Shown piece after piece: positions 16,537 through 43,289 of a stretch of 43,463 nucleotides of DNA (position 1 is the first letter of the stretch; each line of letters starts with the position of its first letter). The notes below the pieces were generated by a model that was not told the origin of the DNA, ran no database searches, and worked only from the letters and a program-made list of their open reading frames with translations. Source of the stretch: Minisyncoccota bacterium (GTDB taxonomy: Bacteria; Patescibacteriota; Minisyncoccia; Phycocordibacterales; Phycocordibacteraceae); contig JAMNXM010000001.1 of NCBI GenBank assembly GCA_023653145.1, positions 1-43,463 on the forward strand, in the 5' to 3' direction. A program made the translations under genes and the position numbers.

Positions 16537-16539
16537 CGT

Positions 16540-16548
16540 TGCTATACT
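16540..16548 (+). promoter_or_regulatory. Extended -10 box TGCTATACT, 6 nt upstream of the gap ATG 16555
   Basis: Read directly from the sequence. Confidence 0.5.
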
Positions 16549-16554
16549 TTACCT

Positions 16555-18731: not shown

Positions 18732-18732
18732 C

Positions 18733-26903: not shown

Positions 26904-29792
26904 ATGAAATACTTCTTTGCACTCACACTTTTTGTACTCGCAAGTACAGGGACCGCGCACGCATTCGCTGTTGTTGAAAACGCACAATGCGTCGGCGGGA
27001 CATTAGTCGCCTCGCACACTGATGTGATTGATGGAGGGGGGCTCGCGCCATACACGAACGCAAAAATTTTGGTTGCATCGGACTGTTCTATGCTCACTCC
27101 TGCGGGCGGGTGCTGTTCAGCAAAGGTTTCAACAAATGGCGGCGGAAAAGGCGGCGCTGTTATCCCCTATACATGGTTCCATTACGACATTTTCACTAAT
27201 GCAACAGTTCAGACCGGGTTTGCCGCCGGTCAGACGGGTCCGCTTGCAAATGAAGCCCCCTTTGAGAGGGCTGTCGGTAGACAGTTTAAGTATTTTGCTG
27301 GTCCGGGAGGTGGTGCTGCGGTGCCAGTGACGGCATCCTTGGTAGCCAACCCAACTGCAATTGGTTCAGGAGAGCAGGCGCTCTTGTCGTGGTCCTCAAC
27401 TGGTGCGGCCACCTGTGTCGGAACGAATTTTTCAACGAACGGCGCAACATCCGGGTCTGTAGTTACCACACCATCTGCAACGACACGCTACTCAATCACC
27501 TGCTCAGCAGCGTCAGCAACACCGCGACCAACTATCATTGACATGAACGCTGATGGCGGGTCATATCAGTCAAACGCAGCATTGATTACTGATATGCAAC
27601 AGAATGGAGGGGTTGCGTTCAGTTCGAGGTACGGGATCTATTCCGACAGTGCAACGACAGACCGTATCTGCAAGATGGTCCACGGCCCAAATGCAACGCA
27701 AGCTGGCTTTGACGTGACAAAGTACAAATCGCCTAAGAACAATGCCATCGTGAAGTGGGACGGTACCAAGTGGATAGCGTTCGGTGCGCGCTCTGATAAT
27801 CGCAAGATCCGCTATGTATTTAAGTGTAGTGTCCCAGGAACGGTGAGCACCACGTCTGGTGAAAGTGCAACCGCGCATGCCACCGTACAAGTTTCTGCTG
27901 TAAATACGCTGAACGTTTCGTGTCGTGCTCACCCAGGACGCGCAGGGTTTAATGAGGACGTACTCTGGTCTTCGACTGTATCTGGTCCCGCAGGTACCTA
28001 CGCCTACTCCTGGACTGGGACAGACTCGTTGTCAGGCACAGGCAACCAGGTCTTTACGCGCTACACCACGCCAGGGGAGAAGAAGGCATGGCTTACAGTA
28101 ACGTACACTCCAGGTACAACACCGCCACCAGCGCAGGCGCAACAAAGTATTGGTGGGTATGAATGGAAGTCCACAGAGAGTTCGCTCGAGGAAACGTGTA
28201 CTGGTGGCGGAGCAAACTTTTTGCCACGATGCCCATCACCACTACCCGCATGTACTGCTGAGAATGTGAATACTACATGCTGGAACGTTCAAGGCAGCGG
28301 AAGCGGAGAGTGTAATCCTAAACTTGCTGCAGAGTTTGGCCTCGTAACTCAAGTTTCCTGCACAGCACCTTCTGCGGGCGTTTTACCCCCTCCACCACCA
28401 ACCAATCCGCCTTCTGGCGCAGTACTGCCAAAGCCAAGTGCATGTCCTGCAATTGCGTGGGCTGTACCCATCACACCTTGTGGCGGCACCTGGGCGCCAT
28501 CATACGACGCAGCTGGGTGCCAAAGTGGTTGGCAGTGCGTTGCCTCTGAGGCACGCCGTACTGAGTTCTACTCGCAAAGTACTGTGTTGCAAAAAATACA
28601 GCACGTAGCTCGTATTGCAGAAAAAGCAATTACAAACGCCACTATTTTGCCTGCCGTATATGCACAGGAGGCGTGCATTCCACCAGGAGAGTACGTTGTG
28701 GATTCGCCAAATGTCACTGCACAAGTTGCGCTTACGCTACTAGATGAGCCGCGGTGCTGCTCTCAGACTGCCCTAACAGGGGGTGAATACTTTAATGATA
28801 TTGTCTGCAGCGGTACCGGTGGCGTTGCAGGTCAGTGTTCGGCAGGGCAAACGGCAGTAGCTGTGTTTAATCCTCAGGGCGCAAGTTGTGCCGGAGGTTC
28901 TGTGGTTGGTAGAACAAGTGAAGTCCTTGATGGTGTTCAGATTGGTATGTGGCCAGATGGTTGGCTTGCGGGTCAGTGTGCTGAACTTGGCGCACAAGCA
29001 GGGGATTGCTGTGAGTATTCGCAGCGCGCAAGTAACAATACGGGTGGCGGGTTCCCACCAAACTCGTACTACCAGATTCGCGTCATTCGTGGAGGATCAT
29101 TTTCAGCGAGCGAATCATCATATATTCAGACTCCACAATGTTCAGGTCTCAATCAGAATTACTCGTGCAGTTCTGTCGCAGGTAGTGTAAGCACGCAGTG
29201 CTCAGGTGGGCCAGGAGACCCACCACCGCCACCTCCACCACCACTCGGTGCCCAGCGCGTAACGGTGCAATGCGACAACTCAGTTACTGTCGGTACTGGA
29301 GAGGGTGAGGACACGAACCAATGTACTGATGGCATAGACAATGACCGCGACGGCCGCACCGATGCAGATGACACAAACTGTGCTAATGGTGGCAGAAGTG
29401 AAAGTGGTGTCACGACACAATGTTCTGACGGCATCGACAACAACGGAGACGGTACCATCGACTTCCCGGAAGACCCATGGTGCGCCTCAGGAAACGACAA
29501 TCGAGAGGCTCCAGACCCAATCGACATGACGCTCACCGGGCCTGCGCTTATCAAGAAGAATCAATCCTGCACCATCTCACTTTCAGCACGGAACGTCACT
29601 TCGTGCACCTTGAGTGGCCCAGGACTCTCGCAAGGATTCACTGCGATTAATGGGTTTGTAAGCGCGTCATCTGTGGTGACTCCTGCTCTTGCACAGACGT
29701 CAACCTATACGCTCAGTTGTCGCGGACTAGACGGTAAGACTGCTGCAAAGTCGGTCGACTGCAAAGTTGCACCAACCTTCGAAGAGTTCTAG
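26904..29792 (+). CDS. Giant secreted Cys-rich multidomain surface protein 1 (962 aa)
   Basis: It has a signal peptide (…STGTAHA|FA). The domains are: two copies of a C-x-GG...CC[SE] module, an Ig-like repeat (LSWSS..C.GTNFST), a TDRICK domain, a PKD-like domain (YAYSWTGTDS), a P8 tract, two QC-x-DGIDN-x-x-DG Asp-rich motifs, a final Ig-like domain, and an APTFEEF tail. Confidence 0.85.
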   Translation: MKYFFALTLFVLASTGTAHAFAVVENAQCVGGTLVASHTDVIDGGGLAPYTNAKILVASDCSMLTPAGGCCSAKVSTNGGGKGGAVIPYTWFHYDIFTNATVQTGFAAGQTGPLANEAPFERAVGRQFKYFAGPGGGAAVPVTASLVANPTAIGSGEQALLSWSSTGAATCVGTNFSTNGATSGSVVTTPSATTRYSITCSAASATPRPTIIDMNADGGSYQSNAALITDMQQNGGVAFSSRYGIYSDSATTDRICKMVHGPNATQAGFDVTKYKSPKNNAIVKWDGTKWIAFGARSDNRKIRYVFKCSVPGTVSTTSGESATAHATVQVSAVNTLNVSCRAHPGRAGFNEDVLWSSTVSGPAGTYAYSWTGTDSLSGTGNQVFTRYTTPGEKKAWLTVTYTPGTTPPPAQAQQSIGGYEWKSTESSLEETCTGGGANFLPRCPSPLPACTAENVNTTCWNVQGSGSGECNPKLAAEFGLVTQVSCTAPSAGVLPPPPPTNPPSGAVLPKPSACPAIAWAVPITPCGGTWAPSYDAAGCQSGWQCVASEARRTEFYSQSTVLQKIQHVARIAEKAITNATILPAVYAQEACIPPGEYVVDSPNVTAQVALTLLDEPRCCSQTALTGGEYFNDIVCSGTGGVAGQCSAGQTAVAVFNPQGASCAGGSVVGRTSEVLDGVQIGMWPDGWLAGQCAELGAQAGDCCEYSQRASNNTGGGFPPNSYYQIRVIRGGSFSASESSYIQTPQCSGLNQNYSCSSVAGSVSTQCSGGPGDPPPPPPPPLGAQRVTVQCDNSVTVGTGEGEDTNQCTDGIDNDRDGRTDADDTNCANGGRSESGVTTQCSDGIDNNGDGTIDFPEDPWCASGNDNREAPDPIDMTLTGPALIKKNQSCTISLSARNVTSCTLSGPGLSQGFTAINGFVSASSVVTPALAQTSTYTLSCRGLDGKTAAKSVDCKVAPTFEEF

Positions 29793-29793
29793 C

Positions 29794-30714
29794 ATGGTAG
29801 ATGTGCGCGCACTCCTTACCAGTCACGAAGCACGGCTCACACTTTTTGGTGTTGTGTGTGCTGTCGTTCTTGGGTCAGTAGTACTTTGGCTCTACTTCGT
29901 TATTCCCGTCAAAGGAACTGCCTCTGCGACTCTGGTGCAGCCGGATCGCTCACAACGGGCAGTTTCTATCACGCTTTCTACAATGGCATGGGAGGGGTAT
30001 CGATTTCGCTCTGCTGAACGGTCATTCATTGTTGCCGCAGTACCAAGTCCAACTAATGATCGAGTAGCATACGTCACACGAACTAAGGACAAAGTAATGC
30101 GCGTGTCTGTTGCGGACGGTGATGGCGACGGTGGAGTAGAGGTCACGTCTGGTGAAACAGGTATTCCAAGTTGGTCACCTGATGGTGGAAGTATTGCGGT
30201 ATCACGTGTGCCAGACGGCGTCACTGAGACCGGAGTCCCAGAGAATTGGTCAGTCGTCCGAGCACTGCCACGTGGTGACTCACTCGAAGTGGGTCGAGGT
30301 TACCGCCCGTTTCCATCACCAAATCAGAGGACGTTTGCACTCACATCAGACGGCATCGCCCTTTTATCGTACAGCGATACTGAGCCGCTCCTTGTCATAG
30401 CAAGTCCAGTTCCGGTGCCACTTACCACCCCATTTGCAGTGTCATTAGATGGTATGCGCGTTGCGTGGGCTGCACCAGCCGATAAGTCACTCCAAGTGTT
30501 TGAAAATGTAAATGGCTACTTTATCCCGCTTCTTCTCAAGACTGATGTGCATCCAGACTCGCTCGCGTTTTCGCCCGATGGGGACTATCTATTAGTTTCG
30601 AAGAATACCGAAGCGACATCGACACTGAGTATTGTGCGCATATCTGACGGACGGACGCGCTTGGTGGGGGAGATAGGTGGCTTGGTCAAACTTCATGCAT
30701 GGCTCTATGAATAG
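29794..30714 (+). CDS. Membrane-anchored PD40/TolB-like repeat protein, cassette copy 2
   Basis: It has a TM helix (LTLFGVVCAVVLGSVVLWLYFVI) and PD40 signatures (IPSWSPDGGSIAVS, LAFSPDGDYLLVS). ATG 29794 lies 1 nt after the upstream TAG. Confidence 0.7.
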   Translation: MVDVRALLTSHEARLTLFGVVCAVVLGSVVLWLYFVIPVKGTASATLVQPDRSQRAVSITLSTMAWEGYRFRSAERSFIVAAVPSPTNDRVAYVTRTKDKVMRVSVADGDGDGGVEVTSGETGIPSWSPDGGSIAVSRVPDGVTETGVPENWSVVRALPRGDSLEVGRGYRPFPSPNQRTFALTSDGIALLSYSDTEPLLVIASPVPVPLTTPFAVSLDGMRVAWAAPADKSLQVFENVNGYFIPLLLKTDVHPDSLAFSPDGDYLLVSKNTEATSTLSIVRISDGRTRLVGEIGGLVKLHAWLYE

Positions 30715-33700
30715 GAATTATATTAAACAGGTACTTGTCGTTGGGATTATCGGTGCTTGGTTCGCGTTAGTACCTAGTGTACTTGCGTTAGACTCAAAGT
30801 TTGTAGCGCTTATCGATAGGGTAGATGGAGGAGGAATTGATGGCGGTGGAGATTTTGGATGGGAGTATCCAGAAATTTATTTCTTCACCGCTTCGCCTGC
30901 ATCAGTAACTTCAGGGGGCAGCGTCACACTTTCGTGGAGTGCAAGTCTTGGCTCATGCGTCGGAACAAATTTTACTGCGGGGTCACTTGACGGTACGCGC
31001 ACAGTAAATCCGACCGTTACGACTACCTATACACTGACTTGTTCAAACGTGTACGGGAGTGATACATCTTCAGCCACAGTATCTGTTGCATCCGCTACGA
31101 GTGATTTGACCGCAGGAGGCGTTACCCCAAGTAGTGGGGTAGTTGGAACTCCGGTGTCATTGTCAGCGACCGTGTCAAACATTGGTGGTGCTTCGACAGG
31201 TGCTGGGTTTACGAATCTCTTCCAGCGTGCGACAGATGCGTCTGGCTCAAACCCTACGGACATTGGCACACACTCGGGCTCAGCACTTGCGGCAAGCGGG
31301 TCAGCGGCCGCAACAGTTTCATATACATTTCCGTCTGCGCAAACGTGGTACGTGCGGGTCTGTGCTGACAAAAATTCAGCGTCTTCTGCAGGAACAATCA
31401 CCGAATCAAACGAAGGGAACAATTGCGGTGCGTGGTCTCTAGTGTCGGTGTCGGCAGTTCCGGGCGCACCAACCATAACGATCGCGGCCAATCCGTCGAA
31501 TATAACGAGTGGTCAGTCAGCAACGCTCACCTGGTCATCGTCAAACGCAACCACATGCACGGGCACCGGGTTTAGTACGGGTAACCAAACCTCTGGTTCA
31601 GTATCAGTTTCGCCAACTGCAACACAAATTTATTCAATTTCTTGTAGTGGTGTTGGTGGGACAGGAACGGGGAGCGCAACAGTAACAGTTGCGACGGCGC
31701 CAACCGCAACAACGCAAAACGGCAAGCTCTGCTCTGGTGGAACGTATATTGGCGCAACGACTGGCACCACAAACAGTTGCGTCTCATACTGTACTTCGGT
31801 AAATGCAAGTTGTTGTAGTACGTATTACACCTACGGAGATTATGCGAACGACTACGCCTGCTACGCATTCTCAAATACCTCGTCTGTCATTAATGCCCCC
31901 ACAACTGGCGGATGCGATTTTGGAGATGGAGGTGGATTCAGTGTCGATGGAGGTGCTGGGGGAGACCCTATCTGTACGTGGACGGACTACTCCGCAACGT
32001 TGCTTAGTTATGGCCCAGCGGTAACTGCGAGTCTCGTAACTAATCCGACCAGTATTTCTGCGGGACAACCCGTTATTATTACGTGGTCGTCTGCCAACGC
32101 CACGTCGTGCACGGGTACTAACTTTTCGACTGGAGGCGCAACGAGCGGTTCAGTTTCGGTAAATCCGACACTTACTACGGTGTACACACTCTCCTGTACT
32201 GGGGCAGGTGGGACTGCTACTGACACAAAGACACTCACGGTAAACGTATTTACTGCAACCTGCTCTGCAACTCCGAATCCCGTCACGGTTAACCAGCCCG
32301 TTTCGTGGTCGTCTGCTGCTACCGGTGGTACAGGGTCATACACGTACTCATGGAGCGGGAGCGATAGTCTTACAGGGTCAACAGCATCTCTCACCAAAAC
32401 GTACGATACATTGGGAGAAAAGGTTGCAACACTGACCGTTACGTCTGGCTCCGAGACGATTACTACGGCATGTACGGGCACTCCATGCCAACAGGCTTCG
32501 TGTACCTGTTCAGGTGGTGGGTGTGGAGTCACAGTGAGGGAGGGCATTAGTACTGACGTGTCCGCAGGTGCACCAGTCATAAATTCAGGAACTCCAATCC
32601 CAGGAGGTACGCTTACGTTTAGTGCTCCCGTGTTAAACATCGGAAATAATTCTATCTCAAGCGTCTTTCAGAATCGCTTTCAGATAGATGTGGGGAACGA
32701 TGGGAGTTACAACGTCACTCTCGATACTGGAGGGTCTGCTGGGTCGCAGTTTGTCCTTGGCTATGGTCAAAAATGTACGGGTGGCAGTGTAGTTGCCACA
32801 GATTCTATCGATACGTACGGAACCGGAGATCTATCCGACACCATACAGTCGATGTGTGAGCAGAGTTCATCAAGTGGTCAATGCTGCAGTGCAACTATTA
32901 CCACGCAGGGTGGTGGAGGTGGTGGCGGAGGAGGTGGTGGCGGAGGAGGTGGTGGGATCCAAGATTGGGTGGGGCGATTTACTGAGCGCAATGTTGCTGC
33001 GGTGTATAAAAGCCTTGCACTCACTTCGTATACCATTGACCTTACGGTGCGCTCAGGTGCATGGACACAGCAGGTGTGCACAACCGAAGCCTGCTATTTC
33101 GGCACCTGGCAATCATTGACCGGAACACAGTTTGATATCCCGTTCGGACAAACTGGAGGTTCAGTAAGTCCGTCGTGGACCAATGTGCCTGCGGGTACGC
33201 ACAAGGTGCGTATGTGTACCGACAGCCCAACGTCGCAACTCAGTGAGACGGATGAGGGTAACAACTGTGGGGCAGACACGGTCTTTACAGTAAGTGGTTT
33301 TGACCTGAGTGCAGGTACTCCAGGAGTAAACTCGGGGACGCTCCTTGGTGGGCAGGCAGTAACCTTCTTTGGCTCTATCTCAAACAACCCTGCGTACTAT
33401 GTTGCGACAGGACAGTGCCAAGCTGCGGTCTATGTTACGCAGGGTGGGACGTGTGCACTCACACTGAGTAAAGATCAATTGGTGTGGTCAACATCAGGTG
33501 CAACTATTGTCAGTGAGATAGCGCCGTTGACTAATTCTCCGACCATTCCTGCAACGGGAGGTGGTGGGATTATTGAGCGCGATATGAATACCTACACGAC
33601 GCCGTATTACAACGCGGACTCGAGACTTATTGCAGACATGGCGGCCAATGGTGTGACCTATACAGATGATGGTATACACACAGGTGACAACAAATCGACA

Positions 33701-35188
33701 GACCGTATCTGTAAGGTTGTGTATGATGCTGCAGCGTGGGTCTCGGCGTTTGATGTTACTAAATACAATTCATGCGGCAACAATACGATAGTACGACACA
33801 ACGGGACTTCGTGGAGTAAAATTGGTGCCTGCTCGGATAACAGAAAAGTTCGATATACATTCAAGTGTGCGAAACTCGGGTCTCCGTATGCGTTCTCTGG
33901 CACGCACGTATTCCCGACGCCGCTCGCTCCGGGGACACACACCTATTCAATGACCACAAATGCGTGCTCTGGCTCTGCGCCAGCAACCACCATAACTCTT
34001 CAAAGTGGTGCGCAATGCACTGGCGGTACACAAGTCGCACAAGATAACGATCTAGTAGACGGTGCGGCATTTTCAAATGGACTTGATGCTATCCGAATGC
34101 AGTGTGAGTCTATGACTCCCGCGGGCGGTTGTTGTAGCGTTGTTGTAGAAGAGACCCTTGCGCATCCAAACCAACCAGTGGAGACTCGGTATACGTATCG
34201 CGCCTATACGGGAGCATCGACTGTACCGCAGACATCAACAACTGAGTATATTGCAGGAGATAGAACTATAAATACACACTATTTTGCGGGTACATATGCA
34301 GGAACATGTAGTACTTCGTGTATAGCCTCGATTACAGTTCCTGAGCCTGGAAGCACTATGTGTTCACTCACCACAACACCTTCAGTCATTTCTTCCGGAG
34401 GTAGCGCAACTCTGTCGTGGGAAACAAGTAACGCGTCGGCGTTCTCTATAGACAATGGGATTGGTGCGGTGACCCCAGTAGGAGCAGGGAGTCGCTCGGT
34501 GTCGCCAACACAGACAACAACGTATACTGGCACGGTAACCACGGACCCAGGCGTATTTGCGCTCACTGGTACTGTGCCTAACCAATTCCAAATCGATCTG
34601 GGTAATAACGGCACCTGGGACGTGACGCTTTCGGGCACCGAACTTGCTACGCTCGGGGTCAATCAGTCCGCACAAGTCACGTCAGTTTCATGGACTGCGG
34701 TAGCAGGCACACATGCAATACGCCTTTGTGCGAATACGCCAAGCGCTATCAGCGAAGGGGATACGACGAACAACTGTGGTAACTCGTTTACCTTTACCGT
34801 GACGCCACCGACGCAGTGTCAGGACGGTGTCGATAACAATGGCAACGGCCTCATAGACCTTGCAGATCCCGCATGTACAGGCACTGGAGACACCGCAGAG
34901 GAGACGTTCTCTGATGCGGCACTCTCACTCTCTGTAAACCAAACGACGGTGCGGAGCGGTGCGTCAGTGACCTTAACCTGGACTGCGGTGGATGTTGTTG
35001 ATGACTCATGCTCGATTGTAGGGTCTACTGGGGGCACGTGGGCAGTAAGTGGTTCGGGTGGAACGCAGGTAGTGGGGCCAGTCACGGCAGAGACCACCTT
35101 TGCGCTTCGCTGTCGCGATATGCAAAACAACGAGGTAGTAGAGGCTGAGACGACGGTCCGCCTTGCACCTAAGTTCGAGGAGATCTAG
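30707..35188 (+). CDS. Giant secreted Cys-rich multidomain surface protein 2 (~1493 aa)
   Basis: The signal-peptide start is MNRNYIKQVLVVGIIGAWFALVPSVLALD, and ATG 30707 overlaps the upstream stop. It has five Ig-like repeats and three CARDB-like domains (…ESNEGNNCG, ETDEGNNCG, EGDTTNNCG), two of which are interrupted by insertions. It also has three C-x-GG...CCS modules, a G16 tract, a PKD-like domain, a TDRICK domain, a QCQDGVDNNGNG motif and an APKFEEI tail. Confidence 0.85.
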   Translation: MNRNYIKQVLVVGIIGAWFALVPSVLALDSKFVALIDRVDGGGIDGGGDFGWEYPEIYFFTASPASVTSGGSVTLSWSASLGSCVGTNFTAGSLDGTRTVNPTVTTTYTLTCSNVYGSDTSSATVSVASATSDLTAGGVTPSSGVVGTPVSLSATVSNIGGASTGAGFTNLFQRATDASGSNPTDIGTHSGSALAASGSAAATVSYTFPSAQTWYVRVCADKNSASSAGTITESNEGNNCGAWSLVSVSAVPGAPTITIAANPSNITSGQSATLTWSSSNATTCTGTGFSTGNQTSGSVSVSPTATQIYSISCSGVGGTGTGSATVTVATAPTATTQNGKLCSGGTYIGATTGTTNSCVSYCTSVNASCCSTYYTYGDYANDYACYAFSNTSSVINAPTTGGCDFGDGGGFSVDGGAGGDPICTWTDYSATLLSYGPAVTASLVTNPTSISAGQPVIITWSSANATSCTGTNFSTGGATSGSVSVNPTLTTVYTLSCTGAGGTATDTKTLTVNVFTATCSATPNPVTVNQPVSWSSAATGGTGSYTYSWSGSDSLTGSTASLTKTYDTLGEKVATLTVTSGSETITTACTGTPCQQASCTCSGGGCGVTVREGISTDVSAGAPVINSGTPIPGGTLTFSAPVLNIGNNSISSVFQNRFQIDVGNDGSYNVTLDTGGSAGSQFVLGYGQKCTGGSVVATDSIDTYGTGDLSDTIQSMCEQSSSSGQCCSATITTQGGGGGGGGGGGGGGGGIQDWVGRFTERNVAAVYKSLALTSYTIDLTVRSGAWTQQVCTTEACYFGTWQSLTGTQFDIPFGQTGGSVSPSWTNVPAGTHKVRMCTDSPTSQLSETDEGNNCGADTVFTVSGFDLSAGTPGVNSGTLLGGQAVTFFGSISNNPAYYVATGQCQAAVYVTQGGTCALTLSKDQLVWSTSGATIVSEIAPLTNSPTIPATGGGGIIERDMNTYTTPYYNADSRLIADMAANGVTYTDDGIHTGDNKSTDRICKVVYDAAAWVSAFDVTKYNSCGNNTIVRHNGTSWSKIGACSDNRKVRYTFKCAKLGSPYAFSGTHVFPTPLAPGTHTYSMTTNACSGSAPATTITLQSGAQCTGGTQVAQDNDLVDGAAFSNGLDAIRMQCESMTPAGGCCSVVVEETLAHPNQPVETRYTYRAYTGASTVPQTSTTEYIAGDRTINTHYFAGTYAGTCSTSCIASITVPEPGSTMCSLTTTPSVISSGGSATLSWETSNASAFSIDNGIGAVTPVGAGSRSVSPTQTTTYTGTVTTDPGVFALTGTVPNQFQIDLGNNGTWDVTLSGTELATLGVNQSAQVTSVSWTAVAGTHAIRLCANTPSAISEGDTTNNCGNSFTFTVTPPTQCQDGVDNNGNGLIDLADPACTGTGDTAEETFSDAALSLSVNQTTVRSGASVTLTWTAVDVVDDSCSIVGSTGGTWAVSGSGGTQVVGPVTAETTFALRCRDMQNNEVVEAETTVRLAPKFEEI
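32909..32956 (+). repeat. In-frame GGN tract encoding 16 consecutive glycines (contains a 15-nt unit GGAGGTGGTGGCGGA repeated twice plus a partial copy)
   Basis: I read the codons directly: GGT GGT GGA GGT GGT GGC GGA GGA GGT GGT GGC GGA GGA GGT GGT GGG. Confidence 0.95.
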
Positions 35189-38181: not shown

Positions 38182-38257
38182 TGGAGCCGCCTCCCAGATT
38201 TGAACTGGGGACCTACTCATTACAAGTGAGTTGCTCTACCAACTGAGCTAAGGCGGC
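38182..38257 (-). tRNA. tRNA-Thr (anticodon TGT), CCA encoded
   Basis: The reverse complement folds canonically. Acceptor stem GCCGCCT/AGGCGGC. D arm GCTC-AGTTGGTA-GAGC. Anticodon arm ACTCA-CTTGTAA-TGAGT. T arm CCCAG-TTCAAAT-CTGGG. Discriminator T followed by CCA. Total 76 nt. Confidence 0.93.
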
Positions 38258-38266
38258 GACTTTTAT

Positions 38267-38272
38267 ACTATA
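38267..38272 (-). promoter_or_regulatory. -10 box TATAGT (minus strand), 9 nt upstream of the tRNA-Thr 5' end
   Basis: This is the reverse complement of ACTATA, read directly from the sequence. Confidence 0.4.
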
Positions 38273-38339
38273 GCGACTTTTGACTTGTTTTGCCACCTGT
38301 TTCTATACGTGATATGTAGAGCAACTCTGCGGCAAGGTA

Positions 38340-38348
38340 TGCTATAAT
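38340..38348 (+). promoter_or_regulatory. Consensus extended -10 box TGCTATAAT, 6 nt upstream of in-frame GTG 38355
   Basis: Read directly from the sequence. An identical 9-mer occurs at 43299-43307. Confidence 0.55.
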
Positions 38349-38747
38349 TTGCACGTGCAAACACTAAACTGTCTACAATGCAGTAGTGTCTTTTCAAGAC
38401 GTTGGCAGAAAAAGTACTGCTCTAACAAATGTCAGGCAGATGCACGATATATAAACTTTACAATTGAATGGTTGCAACGAGGGAAGAAAGTGGTGACTAA
38501 AAATATTTCGGGTCATATAAAAAGATACCTTATTGAGAAATTTGGGGAGAAGTGCTCTCACTGTGGGTGGAACGAAAAGCATCCATCCACGGGACGTGTG
38601 CCTATCGAAGTTGATCATGTGAACGGTAATGCTGCAGATAATAATCCTAAGAATGTGAGACTGCTGTGTCCCAATTGCCATGCTTTAACTGCATCATTCC
38701 GAAACCTTAATAAAGGGAACGGGAGGACTTGGAGAAAGACTCGCTAA
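38349..38747 (+). CDS. HNH endonuclease with an N-terminal Zn-ribbon (free-standing)
   Basis: It has CLQC...KYCSNKCQ followed by HCGW...EVDHVNGNAADNNPKNVRLLCPNCHALT. There is no in-frame ATG near the 5' end. The probable start is GTG 38355 (leaderless); TTG 38349 abuts the -10 box. Confidence 0.8.
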   Translation: MHVQTLNCLQCSSVFSRRWQKKYCSNKCQADARYINFTIEWLQRGKKVVTKNISGHIKRYLIEKFGEKCSHCGWNEKHPSTGRVPIEVDHVNGNAADNNPKNVRLLCPNCHALTASFRNLNKGNGRTWRKTR

Positions 38748-39460: not shown

Positions 39461-40696
39461 CTAGCGCCAGGCGCGGTTGTAGCCAAGGATGACATCGCGT
39501 GTTGAGCGCAAGAGCCACAATGGCGCAATAAACGAGTAGAACGCGATGTACCACGCTAAGTCTAAAGCAATACTACGTTTCGTTCCAGAGATGTGTTTAC
39601 CGATATAGAGCGTCACCACAACTATTGCAACGCCGATAATCCCAAGAAGGAATAGTCCAGTTATTGGTAGGTAAAACCAGTCAAACTGGGGGAATGCGAG
39701 GGTGAGCGAGTGTGTCCATGGTACGTCGCCTTGGGTTGTAATGATGCGCGCCATAAACCGTGCAGTGTCGACAAGGAACAATACAAAGAGTGCAAGTCCT
39801 GAAGCGATCGCGAGTACGGCAAGTGGCATGACCATAAGTCCCAACACGCTGTATTTAGGATTCAGCATCAGGCCGCGGTAGTCGTAGGAGTTGCGCATAA
39901 AGCCACTGGTCCAGCGGGTGCGCTGTTTAACCAAAGCCCAGACTGTGCGCGGCGCTTGCGTAAAGACCTGTGCACGTGGAGCGTTCTCTATTTTGTAGCC
40001 ATGCTTTTGGAGTCGCATTGCCATCTCCATGTCCTCAGTCTGGTGCCCGTAGCGGAATCCGCCAACTTCCTGAAACACAGACTTCCGATAGAAGGAGAAT
40101 GGTCCTGGCGTCACATAGAGCCCGTTGACCGCAGCAAAGATGTGTCTGAGCGCTACGCCAGCAAGGTACTCGGCAAACTGCATGCGCTGGAGTATGTTTT
40201 TAGGTTCGTGGACGGTCATAGACGCAGTAACTGCAGCGACGCGCGGGTCGTCAAAGTGCGCCAAGACCTCCTTCAGTGCTCCGGGGTGCACAAACGAGTC
40301 GGCGTCGAGGCATCCCACAAATTCGGCCGCTGTGCGCTCGATACCGATGTTGAGACCTGTGTGCTTGCCGCCATTTTCTTTATGTATGACGGTGATTTGT
40401 GGGTGCGTAGTGTAGGTGTCCATCACTGCTGCAGTGCCGTCTTTTGATCCGTCATTGATCAAAAAGATGTCGAGTTTATCAGACGGATAGTCGAGTGTGA
40501 GCAGGGACTCAACGGTGCCACCAATGGTGGTTTCTTCGTTGTAGCAGGGGACAATAACTGCAACGTGTGGGAAGTTCGACTCGATGCGCTGCTTGTCGCG
40601 ACGCATCCGCGCGTCACGCGACAAAAACGTCAATAATGCAAAGATTTGGAAGAACAGCGCCAAGAATAGCGTGATGTAGAGGACCGCCTCTGTCAT
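39461..40696 (-). CDS. Processive family-2 glycosyltransferase (NodC/PgaC/cellulose-synthase-like membrane synthase)
   Basis: It has VAVIVPCYNEE, INDGSKDGT, LDADS, an ED motif (TEDMEMAMRL), QRTRWTSG (the QxxRW motif) and flanking TM helices. I chose ATG 40696 because of the TGCTATACT box 6 nt upstream. The track start at 40798 would overlap pheS. Confidence 0.85.
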   Translation of the reverse strand: MTEAVLYITLFLALFFQIFALLTFLSRDARMRRDKQRIESNFPHVAVIVPCYNEETTIGGTVESLLTLDYPSDKLDIFLINDGSKDGTAAVMDTYTTHPQITVIHKENGGKHTGLNIGIERTAAEFVGCLDADSFVHPGALKEVLAHFDDPRVAAVTASMTVHEPKNILQRMQFAEYLAGVALRHIFAAVNGLYVTPGPFSFYRKSVFQEVGGFRYGHQTEDMEMAMRLQKHGYKIENAPRAQVFTQAPRTVWALVKQRTRWTSGFMRNSYDYRGLMLNPKYSVLGLMVMPLAVLAIASGLALFVLFLVDTARFMARIITTQGDVPWTHSLTLAFPQFDWFYLPITGLFLLGIIGVAIVVVTLYIGKHISGTKRSIALDLAWYIAFYSFIAPLWLLRSTRDVILGYNRAWR

Positions 40697-40702
40697 GAGC
40701 GC

Positions 40703-40711
40703 AGTATAGCA
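40703..40711 (-). promoter_or_regulatory. Extended -10 box TGCTATACT (minus strand), 6 nt upstream of the GT2 ATG 40696
   Basis: This is the reverse complement of AGTATAGCA, read directly from the sequence. Confidence 0.5.
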
Positions 40712-40727
40712 AAAAAACGCTTTATTT

Positions 40728-41882
40728 CTAGCGAATTGTTGCGCCAAATTCTTCTCTCGTTGCTGCTTCGACACGAGTATGAAGTGCTTCGACTTCATCG
40801 CTGGTGAGCGTCCGCTCTATCGAACGGTACGTGATCCGATAGGCATAACTCATCTTGTCGGCACCAAATTTTTCATCGTTCTCATATTTATCTATGAGTT
40901 GAACCTCTTCCACCAAATCTCCTGCGATATCGCGTACGGTGTCAAAGTAATCGTTTGGAACGAAGGTTTTTGAGACTATGAATGAGATGTCACGAATAGA
41001 GGGCGGAAACTTTGATACATCTTTGTACACATGCCCGAGCATGAGTTGTTTTTTTATTCGCTCATCAGTCGACCAGAGTAGGCGAATGTCGGGAAGCGCC
41101 ATTGATGCGATGGCAGGGCGCTCAATACCAAAACCGAATGCCCACCCGTGGTAACCTTCAACTCCCATTTTCTTCAGAACACTCGCTTTTGGCATACCTG
41201 AACCGAGGAGTTCAAGCCACTCACCCTTAGCAGGGCCTTCTGCAGCGGTACCCTTAACATTGAGCTCTACTTCGAACGATGGATCTGTGTATGGGAAGGT
41301 GTCCGGATTAATGCGGTATTTCATTTCAGGACCAAAGATCGCGTGCACAATCTCGCCAAGTGCCGTGTGCAAGTCAGCAGGTATAACAGGTTGCGACAGA
41401 GGTGCTATATACCACCCTCCAAACTGATGGAAGACGTTCATGTGACGACTGTCTACTTCGTCCTTGCGGTACACCTTGCCATAGCAGAGCGCACCCATAG
41501 CCTCGCCACGGGCAATACGAGCCTTAACGGTAGGGTCGTTTAAGTAGTAGTACCAAAATACGGTGTCATGTGTACGTAAAATATTTTTCTCATCGACATA
41601 GTACGTGTCTGAGGTGCTGCGCGCAGGGTGTTCAGGAGGGAAGTCGAAGAGATCGAACGAGATATCAGTTGGGACGATTTCAGGAATGTTGATTATATCG
41701 AAGCCGGAAAATGCAGGCGCCTGCTTTACGCGCTCGGCAATATCATAGAGTGGAGAGCCTGGCGTACGCGACAAGTCGGGCATCGAAAGGTAGCGCTCCA
41801 TACGTCGCGCTTCTGCGTCAGTCCGACCCTTGAGGTGTGCAAGGAGTCTCTGTTCCTCGTCGCGGGGGATATTGATTTCCAT
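40728..41882 (-). CDS. pheS: Phenylalanine--tRNA ligase: alpha-type catalytic core fused to a C-terminal FDX-ACB anticodon-binding domain (mitochondrial/monomeric-type architecture)
   Basis: The class IIc motifs are HPARSTSDTYY, YRKDEVDSRHMNVFHQ, FPYTDPSFEV, WLELLGSGM and AFGFGIERPA. The C-terminal ~95 aa reads SKFPPSIRDISFIV...GDLVEEVQLIDKY...YRITYRSIERTLTSDEV, which is an FDX-ACB fold signature. Confidence 0.85.
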   Translation of the reverse strand: MEINIPRDEEQRLLAHLKGRTDAEARRMERYLSMPDLSRTPGSPLYDIAERVKQAPAFSGFDIINIPEIVPTDISFDLFDFPPEHPARSTSDTYYVDEKNILRTHDTVFWYYYLNDPTVKARIARGEAMGALCYGKVYRKDEVDSRHMNVFHQFGGWYIAPLSQPVIPADLHTALGEIVHAIFGPEMKYRINPDTFPYTDPSFEVELNVKGTAAEGPAKGEWLELLGSGMPKASVLKKMGVEGYHGWAFGFGIERPAIASMALPDIRLLWSTDERIKKQLMLGHVYKDVSKFPPSIRDISFIVSKTFVPNDYFDTVRDIAGDLVEEVQLIDKYENDEKFGADKMSYAYRITYRSIERTLTSDEVEALHTRVEAATREEFGATIR

Positions 41883-41890
41883 ACAGTACT

Positions 41891-41899
41891 ACTATAGCA
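41891..41899 (-). promoter_or_regulatory. Extended -10 box TGCTATAGT (minus strand), 8 nt upstream of the pheS ATG 41882
   Basis: This is the reverse complement of ACTATAGCA, read directly from the sequence. Confidence 0.5.
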
Positions 41900-41986
41900 A
41901 ATCGTCCACCTCTCGCATATGAACTACCATGAGGTTCCTCAATGCAGTCTTCACTGCATGTGCAACCAAAGTGTGGATTTCTAGTA

Positions 41987-42016
41987 TTGACGATGGCAAA
42001 GGCAATTTGCTAGAAT
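41987..42016 (+). promoter_or_regulatory. Sigma-70-like promoter: TTGACG, 18-nt spacer, TAGAAT; ATG 42023 lies 6 nt after the -10 box
   Basis: Read directly from the sequence. It would drive a transcript of about 145 nt ending at the 42128-42172 hairpin. Confidence 0.45.
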
Positions 42017-42127
42017 CTACGCATGTCGCGTAACTCGGCATCACAGGCTACGAAGTACTCTGTACTTCTCTCACTCGTCATTTGGACAGAGGGGGTTTGT
42101 GATTCACGGGCATAAGCGACAAAAAAG

Positions 42128-42172
42128 CCAAGAACTCACAAACCCTCCTCTGGAGGGATTTTTTGTTCTTGG
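42128..42172. terminator. Strong bidirectional terminator-like hairpin
   Basis: The outer stem is CCAAGAAC / GTTCTTGG and the inner stem is CCCTCC / GGAGGG. It is followed by a T tract on the plus strand (ATTTTTTG) and preceded by an A tract that reads CTTTTTTG on the minus strand. Confidence 0.7.
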
Positions 42173-42470
42173 GGGTCGATATTAGTAACCGTAATGCAAA
42201 AAATACGTATGGGAATGGAAGGGGGGACAGAGAGGTGCATGGTACATGCTGACCAAACAATGTCAGCGGATTGGGGCTGTATGAAGTGTCAATCGACTCC
42301 ATGTGAATGCGAGCCAGATGAAGGTGATTAATTAATTTTTTTAGATTATATGGGATTCAATGCGATGTTCGAGGTAGTACGTGGAGATGATGAAGTGGTT
42401 AGTGAGACGATGAGTTTGTGCACGTGTGGTCGCCCTGGTGGTGTCTGTGAGTGCTTCTAACAGTCTAATC

Positions 42471-42479
42471 TGCTAGTAT
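42471..42479 (+). promoter_or_regulatory. Extended -10 box TGCTAGTAT, 6 nt upstream of ATG 42486
   Basis: Read directly from the sequence. Confidence 0.5.
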
Positions 42480-42485
42480 GCAAGG

Positions 42486-43289
42486 ATGAGTAAACGGCCG
42501 TTCGTACGAGGTAAGCGCGGGACATACGTATCCGCACCCAAGGAAGAGCGGCGGACGTCGAAGACTGGTTGGGACGAGATGGCGCCATGGTATGCCGGTT
42601 GGGCAGGCGGTGGATCCACCTTTCACAAGCAGTTTGCTATCCCTGCAGTGGTAGAAGCACTGACCGCAGCGCGCCCCAAGGGAGGCGCGCTTGCTGTTAT
42701 TGATCTTGGGTGTGGCCTTGGGGTACTCCGCGAGGCAGTAGAGAAACTCGGCGGCACCTACACCGGTGTCGACAAGTCTCCAACCATGATCCGCGAAGCA
42801 AAGCGTAAGGGCGGTAAGGCGCAATTTTACATTTCCGATGTTGCGCGTCCCGGCGGCGTTGCGCTTCCAGTAACTGAGAAGTATGACCGCGCGGTATTTA
42901 TGTTTTCTATCCAAGATGTCGACGACCACCGTGCTGCGTTTAAAAACGCTGCAGCACTCCTCAAGTCCGGAGGCGAGTTGGTAGTATTTATGGTCCACCC
43001 AGCGTTTCGTATCCCACGTCAGTCTGGATGGGGGACTGATCCAAAGCGCAAACTCACCTATAGGCGCATTGACCGCTATAAGAGCGAGGTAACGATCCCG
43101 CTCCCACAGCGGACAGGAGACACGCAAACAACATCATTCTTTTATCACCGCTCACTCGAGTCATATATGGGCGCGCTCCGCGACGCAGGATTTGTGGTTG
43201 CTGACCTCCGCGAGATCTACTCAGGGACTAAGGACGCTGAGACCGAGTTCCCGCACTTTATGCTCATCCGAGCAAAAGTGGTGCGATAG
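42486..43289 (+). CDS. Class I SAM-dependent methyltransferase (substrate unknown)
   Basis: It has SAM-binding motif I ([11 protein letters not shown]) and post-I/II contexts ([19 protein letters not shown]). It is 267 aa. Confidence 0.75.

What the first reader, a model, noticed from the sequence alone, without database searches (positions are those of the whole stretch)
40728..41882. Mitochondrial-type single-chain PheRS architecture (PheS core + FDX-ACB domain) with no adjacent pheT
The 384-aa protein has the class IIc catalytic motifs of PheS. However, it lacks the long N-terminal coiled coil of bacterial alpha subunits.

It ends with a domain of about 95 aa: SKFPPSIRDISFIV...VRDIAGDLVEEVQLIDKY...YAYRITYRSIERTLTSDEVEALH. 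This matches the ferredoxin-fold anticodon-binding (FDX-ACB) domain. That domain is normally the C-terminal B8 domain of the bacterial beta subunit, and it is fused to the catalytic core in monomeric mitochondrial PheRS. The GDLVE.V.LIDK and YRITYR..ERTL strings closely resemble the mitochondrial enzyme as I recall it.

Canonical bacteria encode a pheS-pheT operon for an (alpha-beta)2 enzyme with an editing site in the beta subunit. Here the downstream gene is a glycosyltransferase with its own promoter. If pheT is absent from the genome, this organism would run a minimal, editing-free PheRS.
Basis: partly seen in the sequence, partly recalled or inferred. Interest (0 to 1): 0.7.

Follow-up and report, generated by a model that had tools for sequence, protein, structure and literature searches.

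The report
Mitochondrial-type single-chain PheRS in Parcubacteria
This gene from a tiny candidate-phyla-radiation (CPR) bacterium encodes a one-chain phenylalanyl-tRNA synthetase of the kind thought to exist only in mitochondria and plastids, it is standard across a large bacterial lineage, and in this clade its active site has been rewired.

Summary
ORF 40728-41882 (minus strand, 384 aa) is a PheS catalytic core fused to an FDX-ACB anticodon-binding domain, with no pheT in the 43-kb window.

Human mitochondrial PheRS is the closest solved relative by whole sequence, by each domain separately and by predicted fold.

It is not a one-off. Close relatives occur in at least 293 stretches of GTDB species genomes and in thousands of metagenomic proteins, all Parcubacteria/Paceibacteria. 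None of 81 loci (1.28 Mb) has a pheT or a second pheS nearby. The gene is more conserved than rpsB, tsf and prfA next to it. NCBI mostly calls it "hypothetical protein".

New here: in the window's clade the motif-2 glutamate (human Glu159) is Gly, and the Thr120-equivalent is Asp. The two changes co-occur in 190 of 201 sequences with no exceptions, and arose about 3 times. FPF has become FPY, and there is an invariant 9-residue loop insert. The Phe-pocket, ATP and G34-anticodon contacts are retained.

Best reading: this is the organism's housekeeping, editing-free, monomeric PheRS.

Genome-wide absence of pheT could not be tested. I found no paper describing a bacterial monomeric PheRS.

The parts
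40728..41882 (-). Complete CDS of the single-chain PheRS: 384 aa, ATG at 41880-41882, TAG stop at 40728-40730.
   Evidence: ORF list. Exact gene call on Logan contig L001. Codons checked.
41757..41882 (-). Short N-terminal region, residues 1-42, with two predicted helices (8-19 and 23-33). It stands where bacterial PheS has a coiled coil of about 100 aa.
   Evidence: The Pfam core starts at residue 43 and there is no coiled-coil domain hit. AF2 secondary structure. The alignment to E. coli PheS starts at its residue 108.
41046..41756 (-). Class II catalytic core (tRNA-synt_2d), residues 43-279.
   Evidence: Pfam PF01409, E 7e-48. Foldseek matches to PheS alpha cores and to mtPheRS.
41562..41570 (-). 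H105-D106-T107, equivalent to human mt His119-Thr120-Ser121, the wall that anchors the substrate amino group. D106 is the relocated carboxylate.
   Evidence: Alignment. Column statistics: D in 190 of 201 sequences, always together with G155. Role of the residues: PMC5521548.
41466..41468 (-). Motif-2 arginine R139, equivalent to T. thermophilus Arg204, the ATP alpha-phosphate ligand.
   Evidence: Invariant in 201 of 201 sequences. Role: PMC8555319.
41418..41432 (-). Motif-2 strand F151-H-Q153-F-G155, equivalent to T. thermophilus F216..Q218..E220 and human Q157/E159. The universal acidic residue is Gly here.
   Evidence: Role of Glu159: PMC5521548 and PMC3275996.
41286..41297 (-). F196-P-Y198-T199, the aromatic pair that sandwiches the Phe ring (human Phe232/Phe234). 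The second Phe is Tyr throughout this clade.
   Evidence: Y in 201 of 201 close homologs, against F in 97 of 110 outside representatives. Role.
41223..41255 (-). Hairpin loop K210-G-T-A-A-E-G-P-A-K-G220. It carries a clade-specific insertion of about 9 residues (GTAAEGPAK) relative to the human mitochondrial enzyme and subclade 2. It is invariant at G211, T212, A214, E215, G216, P217, A218 and G220. Function unknown.
   Evidence: Invariant columns. A 9-residue gap opposite it in human mtPheRS and in the second Parcubacteria subclade. pLDDT about 71.
41118..41147 (-). Motif 3, G246-W-A248-F-G-F-G-I-E-R255. A248 is the equivalent of E. coli Ala294, a Phe-specificity determinant (the role of Ala294 is from my own knowledge, not checked here).
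   Evidence: A in 200 of 201 sequences. The E. coli residue aligned to it is A.
41016..41045 (-). Inter-domain linker, residues 280-289. By analogy with human mtPheRS this is the hinge for rotation of the anticodon-binding domain.
   Evidence: Lies between the two Pfam domains. Hinge rotation of about 160 degrees is described for mtPheRS in PMC5521548. Inferred for this protein.
40731..41015 (-). FDX-ACB anticodon-binding domain, residues 290-384. It carries D298, S300, D331, Y333 and R384, the equivalents of M. tuberculosis beta Asp745, Ser747, Asp778, Phe780 and Arg830, which contact G34, A35 and A36.
   Evidence: Pfam PF03147, E 8e-23. 65.5 bits to the mt ABD against at most 34.5 bits to PheT B8. 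Contact residues from PMC8136816. All five invariant in A1. The mapping rests on alignment offsets and is inferred.
39461..40696 (-). Downstream GT2 glycosyltransferase (411 aa from the homolog-supported start), 31 nt after the PheRS stop. This is context, not part of the enzyme. It occupies the position where pheT sits in canonical operons.
   Evidence: A homolog lies within the fetched flank (up to 10 kb) in 35 of 80 related loci.
41883..42485 (.). A 603-nt non-coding gap upstream of the PheRS gene (GC 45%). It has no Rfam hit and no tRNA_bind remnant, and it is not conserved in relatives.

Best explanation
The gene encodes the organism's housekeeping phenylalanyl-tRNA synthetase in the monomeric 'mitochondrial' (PheRS-M) architecture.

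**Shown**
- One polypeptide carries the class II catalytic module, a short linker and the PheT-B8-type anticodon-binding domain.
- There is no coiled coil, B3/B4 editing domain, B5 domain or B6/7 domain in the gene or anywhere near it.

**Inferred by homology to human mtPheRS**
- The enzyme rests in a closed state.
- The ABD swings out on the linker to read G34 of tRNA-Phe(GAA) through D331, Y333 and R384.
- The core makes Phe-AMP, using R139, F151 and Q153 for ATP, F196 and Y198 for the phenyl ring, and A248 at the pocket floor.
- Phe is then transferred to A76.
- No post-transfer editing is possible.

**Clade-specific change**
- The carboxylate that helps hold the water anchoring the substrate alpha-NH3+ has moved from the motif-2 position (human Glu159, here G155) to the neighbouring wall (human Thr120, here D106).
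- This comes with FPF changed to FPY and a conserved inserted loop.
- I read this as a compensated remodelling that keeps amino-acid activation.

**Speculative**
- Glu159 hydrogen-bonds the meta-OH of m-Tyr in mtPheRS. Removing it may help an editing-free enzyme reject m-Tyr.

**Origin (inferred)**
- An in-frame deletion within a pheS-pheT operon, running from the pheS stop codon to the start of B8, would give this fusion in one step.
- A sub-lineage keeps a stand-alone PheT-B2 domain gene directly upstream of the fused gene. That is consistent with piecemeal loss of pheT.
For: **Architecture and affinity**
- Pfam tRNA-synt_2d plus FDX-ACB.
- Best PDB relatives are human mtPheRS, for the whole protein and for the ABD alone.
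- AF2 model with pLDDT 91 and pTM 0.88. It matches closed-state 3CMQ/5MGH at TM 0.78 and rmsd 2.8-3.0 A over about 395 columns. It matches the open state 3TUP at TM 0.57.

**Housekeeping status**
- More conserved than S2 in 35 of 35 genome pairs, EF-Ts in 38 of 38, RF in 28 of 30 and L31 in 22 of 27.
- One copy per locus and no second pheS in 1.28 Mb.
- Sits among translation genes here (L31, prfA, rpsB, tsf, tRNA-Thr). In the sister subclade it sits directly upstream of gyrB-secE-nusG-rplK.

**No pheT nearby**
- No B3/B4, B5 or B6/7 match in the window or in 80 genome loci.

**Lineage-wide**
- 293 matching stretches in GTDB species genomes, including a complete 721-kb chromosome.
- At least 6931 database proteins.
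- A second subclade at 40-50% identity in Wolfe-, Staskawicz-, Nealson- and Portnoybacteria.

**Functional residues retained**
- R139, F151, Q153, F196, T199 and A248 are invariant or nearly so.
- The G34/A35/A36 contacts D298, S300, D331, Y333 and R384 are invariant.

**Compensation**
- (D106, G155) occurs in 190 sequences and (T/N106, D155) in 11. No sequence has both acids or neither.
- About 3 independent coupled switches; at least 3 in 94 of 100 bootstrap trees.
- Thr120, Gln157 and Glu159 hold the same water molecule in the human structure (PMC5521548).

**Precedent**
- Monomeric mtPheRS is fully active without a beta subunit (PMC3275996).
- Monomer-type PheRS has replaced plastid syfB (pheT) several times in algae (PMC4494062).
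Against: - Genome-wide absence of canonical pheS/pheT was not tested.
- The window protein scores below the curated cutoffs of every NCBIfam PheRS model: pheS_mito 209.9 against 258, pheS 143 against 237. NCBI's own rules would not name it PheRS.
- It scores almost equally on NF051887, 'PheS-related mystery ligase SrmL' (205.6 bits). That family has the same two-domain layout and NCBI curators consider its function unknown.
- The motif-2 Glu, universal in characterised PheRS, is missing. The compensation argument is inferential, because I could not inspect model coordinates.
- AF2 was trained on 3CMQ, so the 'closed' domain arrangement is weak evidence.
- There are no biochemical data for any member.
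Confidence: 0.82

Rival explanations
1. It is a paralogous 'PheS-related ligase', SrmL-like, with a non-canonical job such as charging a different substrate or acceptor. The real PheRS would be a canonical pheS-pheT pair encoded elsewhere in the genome.
For: - The SrmL model (NF051887) matches end to end (residues 61-376 to profile positions 33-347 of 349) at 205.6 bits, nearly tied with pheS_mito.
- The protein is below all curated PheRS cutoffs.
- The universal motif-2 Glu is lost and FPF is changed.
- NCBI annotates many members as 'hypothetical protein'.
- pheT absence was not tested genome-wide.
Against: - 205.6 bits is far below SrmL's cutoff of 300. None of the 20 sampled relatives reaches it either.
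- The close sister P0121 passes the pheS_mito cutoff (264 against 258).
- The gene is more conserved than ribosomal protein S2 and EF-Ts, and sits in core translation or replication neighbourhoods.
- Every G34-anticodon contact and the Phe-pocket residues are invariant.
- The Glu loss is compensated. It toggles with an Asp-bearing state inside one orthologous group.
- No second pheS or pheT was seen in 1.28 Mb around 81 copies.
- Genomes of 0.6-1.2 Mb are unlikely to keep two PheRS-type systems (inference).
Confidence: 0.08
2. It is a functional PheRS, but not a strict monomer or not acting alone. It would work with a trans-acting partner, such as the stand-alone PheT-B2-like tRNA-binding protein or a free editing factor, forming a reduced two-component enzyme.
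For: - A conserved PF01588-only protein of about 140 aa has as its best curated match the B2 region of PheT (94-109 bits, above YtpR and TapR).
- It lies immediately upstream of, and co-directional with, the single-chain PheRS gene in 7 of 7 cases examined.
- About 715 members exist.
Against: - It is absent from the window and from the flanks fetched around the gene (up to 10 kb on each side) in 77 of 81 loci.
- The family is much smaller than the PheRS family: 736 word-sharing candidates, against more than 8000. It cannot be a general requirement.
- Human mtPheRS needs no partner.
- No B3/B4-like editing module was found anywhere.
Confidence: 0.08
3. The gene is a recent horizontal acquisition from a eukaryote (a FARS2 copy) or a contaminating eukaryotic sequence. 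In that case it would not be an old bacterial trait.
For: The nearest characterised relatives are eukaryotic mitochondrial enzymes.
Against: - Identity to human FARS2 is only about 32%.
- The gene has no presequence and no introns. It sits in a bacterial operon context on contigs of up to 1.2 Mb.
- Parcubacteria sequences plus a few other prokaryote-type sequences form a clade with 100% bootstrap, separate from the eukaryotic representatives.
- The family spans two deep Parcubacteria subclades at 40-50% identity.
Confidence: 0.02

Closest known systems
Mitochondrial/organellar monomeric PheRS (FARS2, yeast MSF1; 'PheRS-M' in AARS Online; TIGR00469; PDB 3CMQ, 3TUP)
   Same: - Same domain order: short N-terminus, class II core, linker, B8-type FDX-ACB.
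- Best sequence match overall and for each domain.
- Full-length fold match at TM 0.78.
- No editing domain.
- Same ATP, Phe-pocket and anticodon-contact residues.
   Different: - Found in bacteria, with no presequence.
- Lacks the roughly 40-residue insertion between motif 2 and the following helix (the two-stretch alignment).
- Glu159 is Gly, Thr120 is Asp, Ser121 is Thr and Phe234 is Tyr.
- Has an extra invariant loop of about 9 residues (GTAAEGPAK, within 210-220).
- Scores 209.9, below the TIGR00469 cutoff of 258.
- Forms a separate clade with 100% bootstrap.
Bacterial (alpha-beta)2 PheRS: PheS (TIGR00468) plus PheT (TIGR00472)
   Same: - The catalytic core is homologous to PheS, at 27-30% identity and with a superposable core.
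- The C-terminal domain is homologous to PheT B8 and uses the same G34-binding residues.
   Different: - One chain instead of two.
- No coiled coil, B1, B2, B3/B4 (editing), B5 or B6/7.
- No pheT next to the gene in 81 of 81 loci.
- Below the TIGR00468 cutoff, 143 against 237.
NF051887 'PheS-related mystery ligase SrmL' (an NCBIfam family; I found no publication)
   Same: The profile aligns across both domains (33-347 of 349) at 205.6 bits. SrmL therefore evidently shares the PheS-core plus FDX-ACB layout.
   Different: - The score is well below the cutoff of 300.
- pheS_mito is the better hit for the window protein and for its sister P0121.
- No relative retrieved here was named SrmL or reached the cutoff.
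- What SrmL does and who carries it remain unknown to me.
Single-chain PheRS of the second Parcubacteria subclade (Wolfe-, Staskawicz-, Nealson-, Portnoybacteria; for example P0347, P0358, P0366)
   Same: - Same architecture and about the same length (380 aa).
- Same phylum-level lineage and a housekeeping context.
- Belongs to the same clade with 100% bootstrap, through P0124.
   Different: - 40-50% identity to the window protein.
- Keeps the ancestral-type site ([H/Q]-T-T, FHQxD, FPF).
- Lacks the GTAAEGPAK loop insertion.

Membership tests
Monomeric mitochondrial-type PheRS (PheRS-M / TIGR00469) | A single polypeptide with the class II PheS-type catalytic module followed by a C-terminal FDX-ACB (B8-type) anticodon-binding domain. 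| tested here: met
   Pfam PF01409 at 43-279 and PF03147 at 290-384. Full-length Foldseek match to 3CMQ at TM 0.78.
Monomeric mitochondrial-type PheRS (PheRS-M / TIGR00469) | Absence of the PheS N-terminal coiled coil and of all other PheT domains (B1-B7, including the B3/B4 editing domain). | tested here: met
   No such Pfam hits. E. coli PheT matches only through its residues 698-794.
Monomeric mitochondrial-type PheRS (PheRS-M / TIGR00469) | Whole-protein score at or above the curated equivalog cutoff (258.35 bits). | tested here: not met
   209.9 bits. The sister P0121 (58% identical) does pass, at 264.3. The model was built on eukaryotic sequences, so this says 'not a typical FARS2 ortholog'. 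It does not say 'not this architecture'.
Monomeric mitochondrial-type PheRS (PheRS-M / TIGR00469) | Both domains closer to the organellar enzyme than to bacterial PheS/PheT, implying a common origin of the fusion. | tested here: met
   183 against at most 111 bits for the whole protein. 65.5 against at most 34.5 bits for the ABD. In the NJ tree the single-chain forms are apart from canonical PheS, but the root position has only 60% support.
Monomeric mitochondrial-type PheRS (PheRS-M / TIGR00469) | Canonical substrate-binding set: His119, Thr120, Ser121, Gln157, Glu159, Phe232 and Phe234 (human numbering). | tested here: not met
   His, Gln and the first Phe are kept. Thr120 is Asp, Ser121 is Thr, Glu159 is Gly and Phe234 is Tyr. 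The Asp/Gly pair covaries perfectly, which suggests compensation.
Monomeric mitochondrial-type PheRS (PheRS-M / TIGR00469) | Active as a monomer in Phe-tRNA-Phe synthesis, with no editing. | not testable with these tools
   Needs biochemistry. This is inferred from the architecture and from residue conservation.
Bacterial PheRS alpha subunit (PheS, TIGR00468) | N-terminal coiled coil plus core, a score at or above 237.45 bits, and a partner pheT gene (normally adjacent). | tested here: not met
   143 bits. No coiled coil. No pheT in the window or in 80 related loci.
PheS-related mystery ligase SrmL (NF051887) | Whole-protein score at or above the curated cutoff (300 bits). | tested here: not met
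   205.6 bits. None of the 20 sampled relatives reaches 300; the maximum is 273.8.
PheS-related mystery ligase SrmL (NF051887) | Co-occurrence with a canonical PheST in the same genome. This is implied by the name 'mystery ligase'; it is my inference, not documented. | not testable with these tools
   No whole-genome access. No publication on SrmL in the searchable library.

The most novel reading that the evidence does not exclude
Three claims together:
1. The Parcubacteria radiation runs translation on a sole, monomeric, editing-free PheRS. That would overturn the statement that the (alpha-beta)2 heterotetramer is conserved in all prokaryotes.
2. The window's clade has re-engineered how the substrate amino group is anchored, by moving a carboxylate from motif 2 to the opposite wall, adding a Tyr in the aromatic clamp and inserting a new loop. 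This would be an active-site solution to the fidelity problem (rejecting m-Tyr and Tyr) that other bacteria solve with the PheT editing domain.
3. The bacterial single-chain clade represents the pre-eukaryotic source of the fusion later fixed as mitochondrial PheRS.
Probability: 0.2. Interest if true: 0.85.

Novelty: new variant of a known kind. Interest (0 to 1): 0.62.

Why it matters
[quoted passage not shown] A whole bacterial radiation using the monomeric form would change that picture.

**Origin of mitochondrial PheRS.** This gives a prokaryotic relative of FARS2 with the same fusion, so the origin of mitochondrial PheRS becomes testable by phylogeny.

**Translation fidelity.** It raises the question of how ultra-small epibionts cope with Tyr and m-Tyr mischarging without a PheT editing site.

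**A natural experiment in active-site design.** The coupled Thr-to-Asp and Glu-to-Gly exchange, repeated about 3 times, can be tested with a few point mutants.

**Annotation and genome quality metrics.**
- These essential genes fall below all curated PheRS model cutoffs and are mostly labelled 'hypothetical protein'.
- In one sub-lineage, IMG labels a 140-aa B2 remnant 'PheRS beta chain'.
- From my own knowledge, marker sets that expect TIGR00468 and TIGR00472 would then under-score the completeness of these genomes.

Tried and rejected
- **Literature.** Ten full-text searches looked for a bacterial or CPR monomeric PheRS, for SrmL, for PheRS-M, and for pheT/TIGR00472 in Patescibacteria. None describes this. 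The phrase 'monomeric PheRS' occurs only for organelles.
- **Genome-wide pheT absence.** Not achievable. No tool reads beyond 10 kb on either side of a hit. No CPR PheT sequence could be obtained to seed a targeted search.
- **SrmL identity.** A search seeded with the most SrmL-like relative (P0124) returned no protein named SrmL. It returned more Parcubacteria PheRS-type proteins.
- **Regulatory RNA or leader upstream of the gene.** No Rfam match at E of 1 or better in 40500-42700. The 603-nt gap is not conserved.
- **Degraded tRNA_bind or pheT remnant in the window.** None found by tblastn.
- **'Own promoter' for the glycosyltransferase.** One consensus-like site, not enriched over shuffled sequence. 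Left as unproven.
- **Viral origin of the short pheS_mito-type group.** The IMG/VR scan found no close relative, so this rests on gene context only.
- **Recent eukaryotic transfer or contamination.** Rejected on gene context and on the tree.
- **Root of the single-chain tree.** Bootstrap is only 60% with NJ, so the direction of any bacteria-eukaryote transfer is left open.
Full report
**1. Observation**

The ORF is real but lies on the minus strand: 40728-41882, 384 aa, ATG start, TAG stop.

- Pfam finds tRNA-synt_2d at residues 43-279 (E 7e-48) and FDX-ACB at 290-384 (E 8e-23).
- There is no PheS coiled-coil domain. The N-terminal 42 residues form two short predicted helices.
- The next gene on the same strand is a GT2 glycosyltransferase, 39461-40696, 31 nt downstream.
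- tblastn with E. coli PheT (fetched) against the whole window hits only the FDX-ACB part of this gene.
- Pfam scans of the window's long ORFs find no B3_4, B5 or tRNA_bind domain. They covered all but a few short ORFs of a greedy list of ORFs of at least 80 aa; the tblastn covers the rest.
- The rest of the window looks like a CPR/Patescibacteria genome: a type IV pilus cluster, LigA, GatA, GAPDH, split transketolase, L25, L31, a release factor, S2, EF-Ts, tRNA-Met and tRNA-Thr.

**2. Is it 'mitochondrial-type'?**

Yes, by four independent measures.

- **PDB sequence search.** The six best hits are human mitochondrial PheRS at 183 bits (E 6e-53). Bacterial PheS chains reach at most 111 bits.
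- **ABD alone.** It scores 65.5 bits to the human mitochondrial ABD and at most 34.5 bits to any PheT B8 domain. Both halves therefore share the affinity, which argues for a single origin of the fusion.
- **Curated models.** NCBIfam pheS_mito gives 209.9 bits and pheS gives 143 bits.
- **Predicted fold.** An AlphaFold2 model from 55 sequences (pLDDT 91.1, pTM 0.88) matches closed-state human mtPheRS over its full length (3CMQ/5MGH, TM 0.78, rmsd 2.8-3.0 A, about 395 columns). The tRNA-bound open state 3TUP gives TM 0.57. Bacterial alpha subunits match only the core. Because 3CMQ was in the training data, the closed pose is weak evidence.

**3. How common is it?**

Very common, but in one lineage.

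- The protein database returns at least 6931 homologs. The top 120 are 72-99% identical, almost all 384 aa, and all have both domains. The named ones are Parcubacteria or Patescibacteria.
- The GTDB species-genome scan found 293 confirmed stretches. The 80 loci fetched are labelled Kaiser-, Zambryski-, Colwell-, Nomura-, Adler-, Harrison- and Doudnabacteria, Paceibacterota and similar. They include a complete 721-kb chromosome and contigs of up to 1.2 Mb.
- A second subclade, 40-50% identical, occurs in Wolfe-, Staskawicz-, Nealson- and Portnoybacteria.
- NCBI labels most of these proteins 'hypothetical protein'. IMG labels them 'PheRS alpha chain'.
- In an exhaustive search of 1.84 billion cluster representatives, only 159 clusters match at E of 1e-30 or better. 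The rest of this small sequence space looks largely eukaryotic, to judge from the N-terminal presequences of many representatives. It also holds a group of 335-370-aa proteins without a presequence.

**4. Is it the housekeeping PheRS?**

Direct proof would be absence of pheT from a whole genome. I could not obtain that. The indirect evidence is consistent.

- phmmer with E. coli PheS and PheT against all six-frame ORFs of the window plus 80 genome loci (1.28 Mb) finds one PheS-like gene per locus. It finds no B3/B4, B5 or B6/7 anywhere.
- Between the window and each related genome, the gene is more conserved than the neighbouring core genes:

| Neighbouring gene | Genome pairs where the PheRS gene is more conserved |
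|---|---|
| S2 | 35 of 35 |
| EF-Ts | 38 of 38 |
| RF | 28 of 30 |
| L31 | 22 of 27 |

- The context is core machinery: L31, RF, S2 and EF-Ts here, and gyrB-secE-nusG-rplK in the sister subclade.
- The ATP and Phe-pocket residues R139, F151, Q153, F196, T199 and A248 are invariant or nearly so in 201 homologs.
- The residues that contact G34, A35 and A36 in M. tuberculosis PheRS are Asp745, Ser747, Asp778, Phe780 and Arg830 (PMC8136816). They map by alignment offsets and identical spacing to D298, S300, D331, Y333 and R384. All five are invariant.

**5.

The catalytic motifs are not fully canonical. Motif 2 reads F-H-Q-F-G, where every characterised PheRS has F-H-Q-x-E.

- In human mtPheRS, Glu159, Gln157 and Thr120 hold the ordered water that, together with Ser121, anchors the substrate alpha-NH3+ (PMC5521548).
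- Glu159 also hydrogen-bonds the meta-OH of m-Tyr (PMC3275996).
- States at the two positions across 201 close homologs:

| Residue at Thr120 position | Residue at Glu159 position | Sequences |
|---|---|---|
| Asp | Gly | 190 |
| Thr or Asn | Asp | 11 |
| both acidic, or neither | | 0 |

- Outside the clade the positions are Thr or Met with Glu or Asp.
- On trees built without these two columns, the coupled switch needs about 3 independent events, and at least 3 in 94 of 100 bootstraps.
- The whole clade also has FPY instead of FPF, the aromatic clamp on the Phe ring.
- The window's clade has an invariant inserted segment of about 9 residues (GTAAEGPAK) within loop K210-G220. Human mtPheRS and the second Parcubacteria subclade lack it.
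- I read the Asp/Gly exchange as a compensated relocation of the carboxylate. That supports a working amino-acid-activating site.
- Whether it tunes specificity, for instance against m-Tyr in an enzyme that cannot edit, is speculation.

**6. Rival: a 'mystery ligase'**

NCBIfam has a model, NF051887 'PheS-related mystery ligase SrmL', that aligns across both domains at 205.6 bits.

- Its cutoff is 300 bits. Neither the window protein nor any of 20 sampled relatives reaches it.
- pheS_mito is the better hit for the window protein and its sister P0121, and P0121 passes that model's cutoff.
- No retrieved protein is named SrmL, and no paper mentions it.
- Given the housekeeping signals above, I give this rival about 8%.

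**7. Phylogeny**

I built an NJ tree with 80 sequences, 346 columns and 200 bootstraps.

- Parcubacteria plus P0121 get 100% support.
- A wider prokaryote-type single-chain clade also gets 100%. It adds P0126 and the 'Oligoflexia'-labelled P0124 with P0128.
- This clade is separate from the eukaryotic and phage-like representatives.
- The split that would place the root between this clade and the rest has only 60% support.
- A recent transfer from a eukaryote is therefore excluded. The direction of any ancient transfer stays open.

**8. A PheT remnant in one sub-lineage**

In L072, L073, L080 and L081 a 140-aa ORF ends just upstream of the fused gene and matches only PheT residues 40-134.

- It belongs to a family of about 715 PF01588-only proteins.
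- Its best curated match is the B2 region of pheT_bact (94-109 bits), ahead of YtpR, TapR, CsaA and the MetRS C-terminal models.
- In three further contigs it again sits directly upstream of the single-chain PheRS gene, followed by gyrB. That makes 7 of 7 cases.
- The window lacks it.
- It fits a picture of stepwise pheT decay and could act as a trans tRNA-binding helper in that sub-lineage.

**9. Known or new?**

- The architecture is known from organelles: PheRS-M, FARS2 and MSF1.
- Reviews say that prokaryotic PheRS is always heterotetrameric and that mtPheRS is the only monomeric class II-core synthetase.
- Ten full-text searches found no description of a bacterial one.
- Databases contain these sequences, and curators have clearly seen related proteins (SrmL). 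The existence of the fusion in bacteria is therefore implicit database knowledge. I do not claim to be the first to see it.
- The remodelled active site, the inserted loop and the B2 mini-gene pairing appear undescribed.
- I file it as a new variant of a known kind.

**10. Verdict**

- It is a lineage-wide trait, not a peculiarity of this window.
- Confidence that this is the organism's functional, editing-free, monomeric-type PheRS: about 0.8.
- Interest: 0.62.

Noticed in passing
L081 9522-9959, L080 9548-9973, L073 9321-9935, L072 9520-9987; L089-L091 4001-4423: A stand-alone protein of about 140 aa containing only a tRNA_bind domain. Its best curated match is the B2 domain of PheT. It lies immediately upstream of, and co-directional with, the single-chain PheRS gene in 7 of 7 cases, followed by gyrB. 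IMG annotates it 'PheRS beta chain'. It may be a pheT remnant or a trans tRNA-binding helper. It is absent from the window.
   Followed up: yes
L082 10001-11047 (ENA ERZ19027398 scaffold_19, 340,874 bp); also L083 and L084: A 348-aa single-chain PheRS without a presequence. Its cluster representative P0137 passes the pheS_mito cutoff (308 against 258). It sits on a 340-kb contig dense with small hypothetical ORFs plus PhageMetallopep, PcfJ and an SNF2 helicase, so it looks like a huge phage carrying a mitochondrial-type PheRS. The IMG/VR scan found no close relative, so this rests on gene context only.
   Followed up: partly
P0283-P0401; L087 and L088 10001-11146: A second Parcubacteria subclade (Wolfe-, Staskawicz-, Nealson- and Portnoybacteria) has the same single-chain PheRS with the ancestral-type active site. 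The gene sits directly upstream of gyrB-secE-nusG-rplK. NCBI calls nearly all of the named ones 'hypothetical protein', so an essential gene is systematically left unnamed.
   Followed up: partly
L086 10001-11245 (GCA_019694465.1, labelled Oligoflexia bacterium): A 414-aa single-chain homolog (P0124) in a MAG labelled Oligoflexia. Its neighbours are not translation genes (peptidase M20, GCS2, enolase-superfamily proteins, a beta-lactamase). Its best curated hit is SrmL, but below the cutoff. This could be a genuine non-CPR carrier (a possible paralog alongside PheST) or a mis-binned contig.
   Followed up: no
window 41883-42485: A 603-nt gap with no convincing ORF upstream of the PheRS gene, which is unusual in a compact genome. 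GC is 45% against about 52% elsewhere. There is no Rfam hit, and the only similarity is one weak 100-nt match in the closest genome (L002).
   Followed up: partly
window 38182-38747: A 132-aa HNH-endonuclease-like ORF (38349-38747, +) sits next to tRNA-Thr(TGT) (38182-38257, -), between the tsf block and the PheRS block. It may be a mobile or homing element at a synteny break.
   Followed up: no
window 26904-35188: Three consecutive large ORFs of 962, 315 and 1503 aa with almost no Pfam signal: only a CARDB domain in the 1503-aa protein and a sub-threshold PD40 repeat match in the 315-aa one. They are probably cell-surface proteins of this presumed episymbiont.
   Followed up: no
window 16433-17571: tRNA-Met(CAT) at 16433-16504 overlaps the 5' end of the longest GAPDH ORF (16447-17571). 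The Gp_dh_N domain starts at residue 39, so the true GAPDH start is probably downstream of the tRNA.
   Followed up: no
window 12-11262: A complete type IV pilus locus: PilM, PilO, a PilB-like ATPase with an MshEN domain, a receiver-domain protein, a PilT-like ATPase, PilC, at least five pilin-like ORFs with N_methyl motifs, and a prepilin peptidase. This is typical of CPR episymbionts.
   Followed up: no
window 18667-20575: Transketolase is encoded as two ORFs, an N-terminal half of 309 aa and a C-terminal half of 337 aa. The longest ORFs overlap by 35 nt (18667-19596 and 19562-20575).
   Followed up: no
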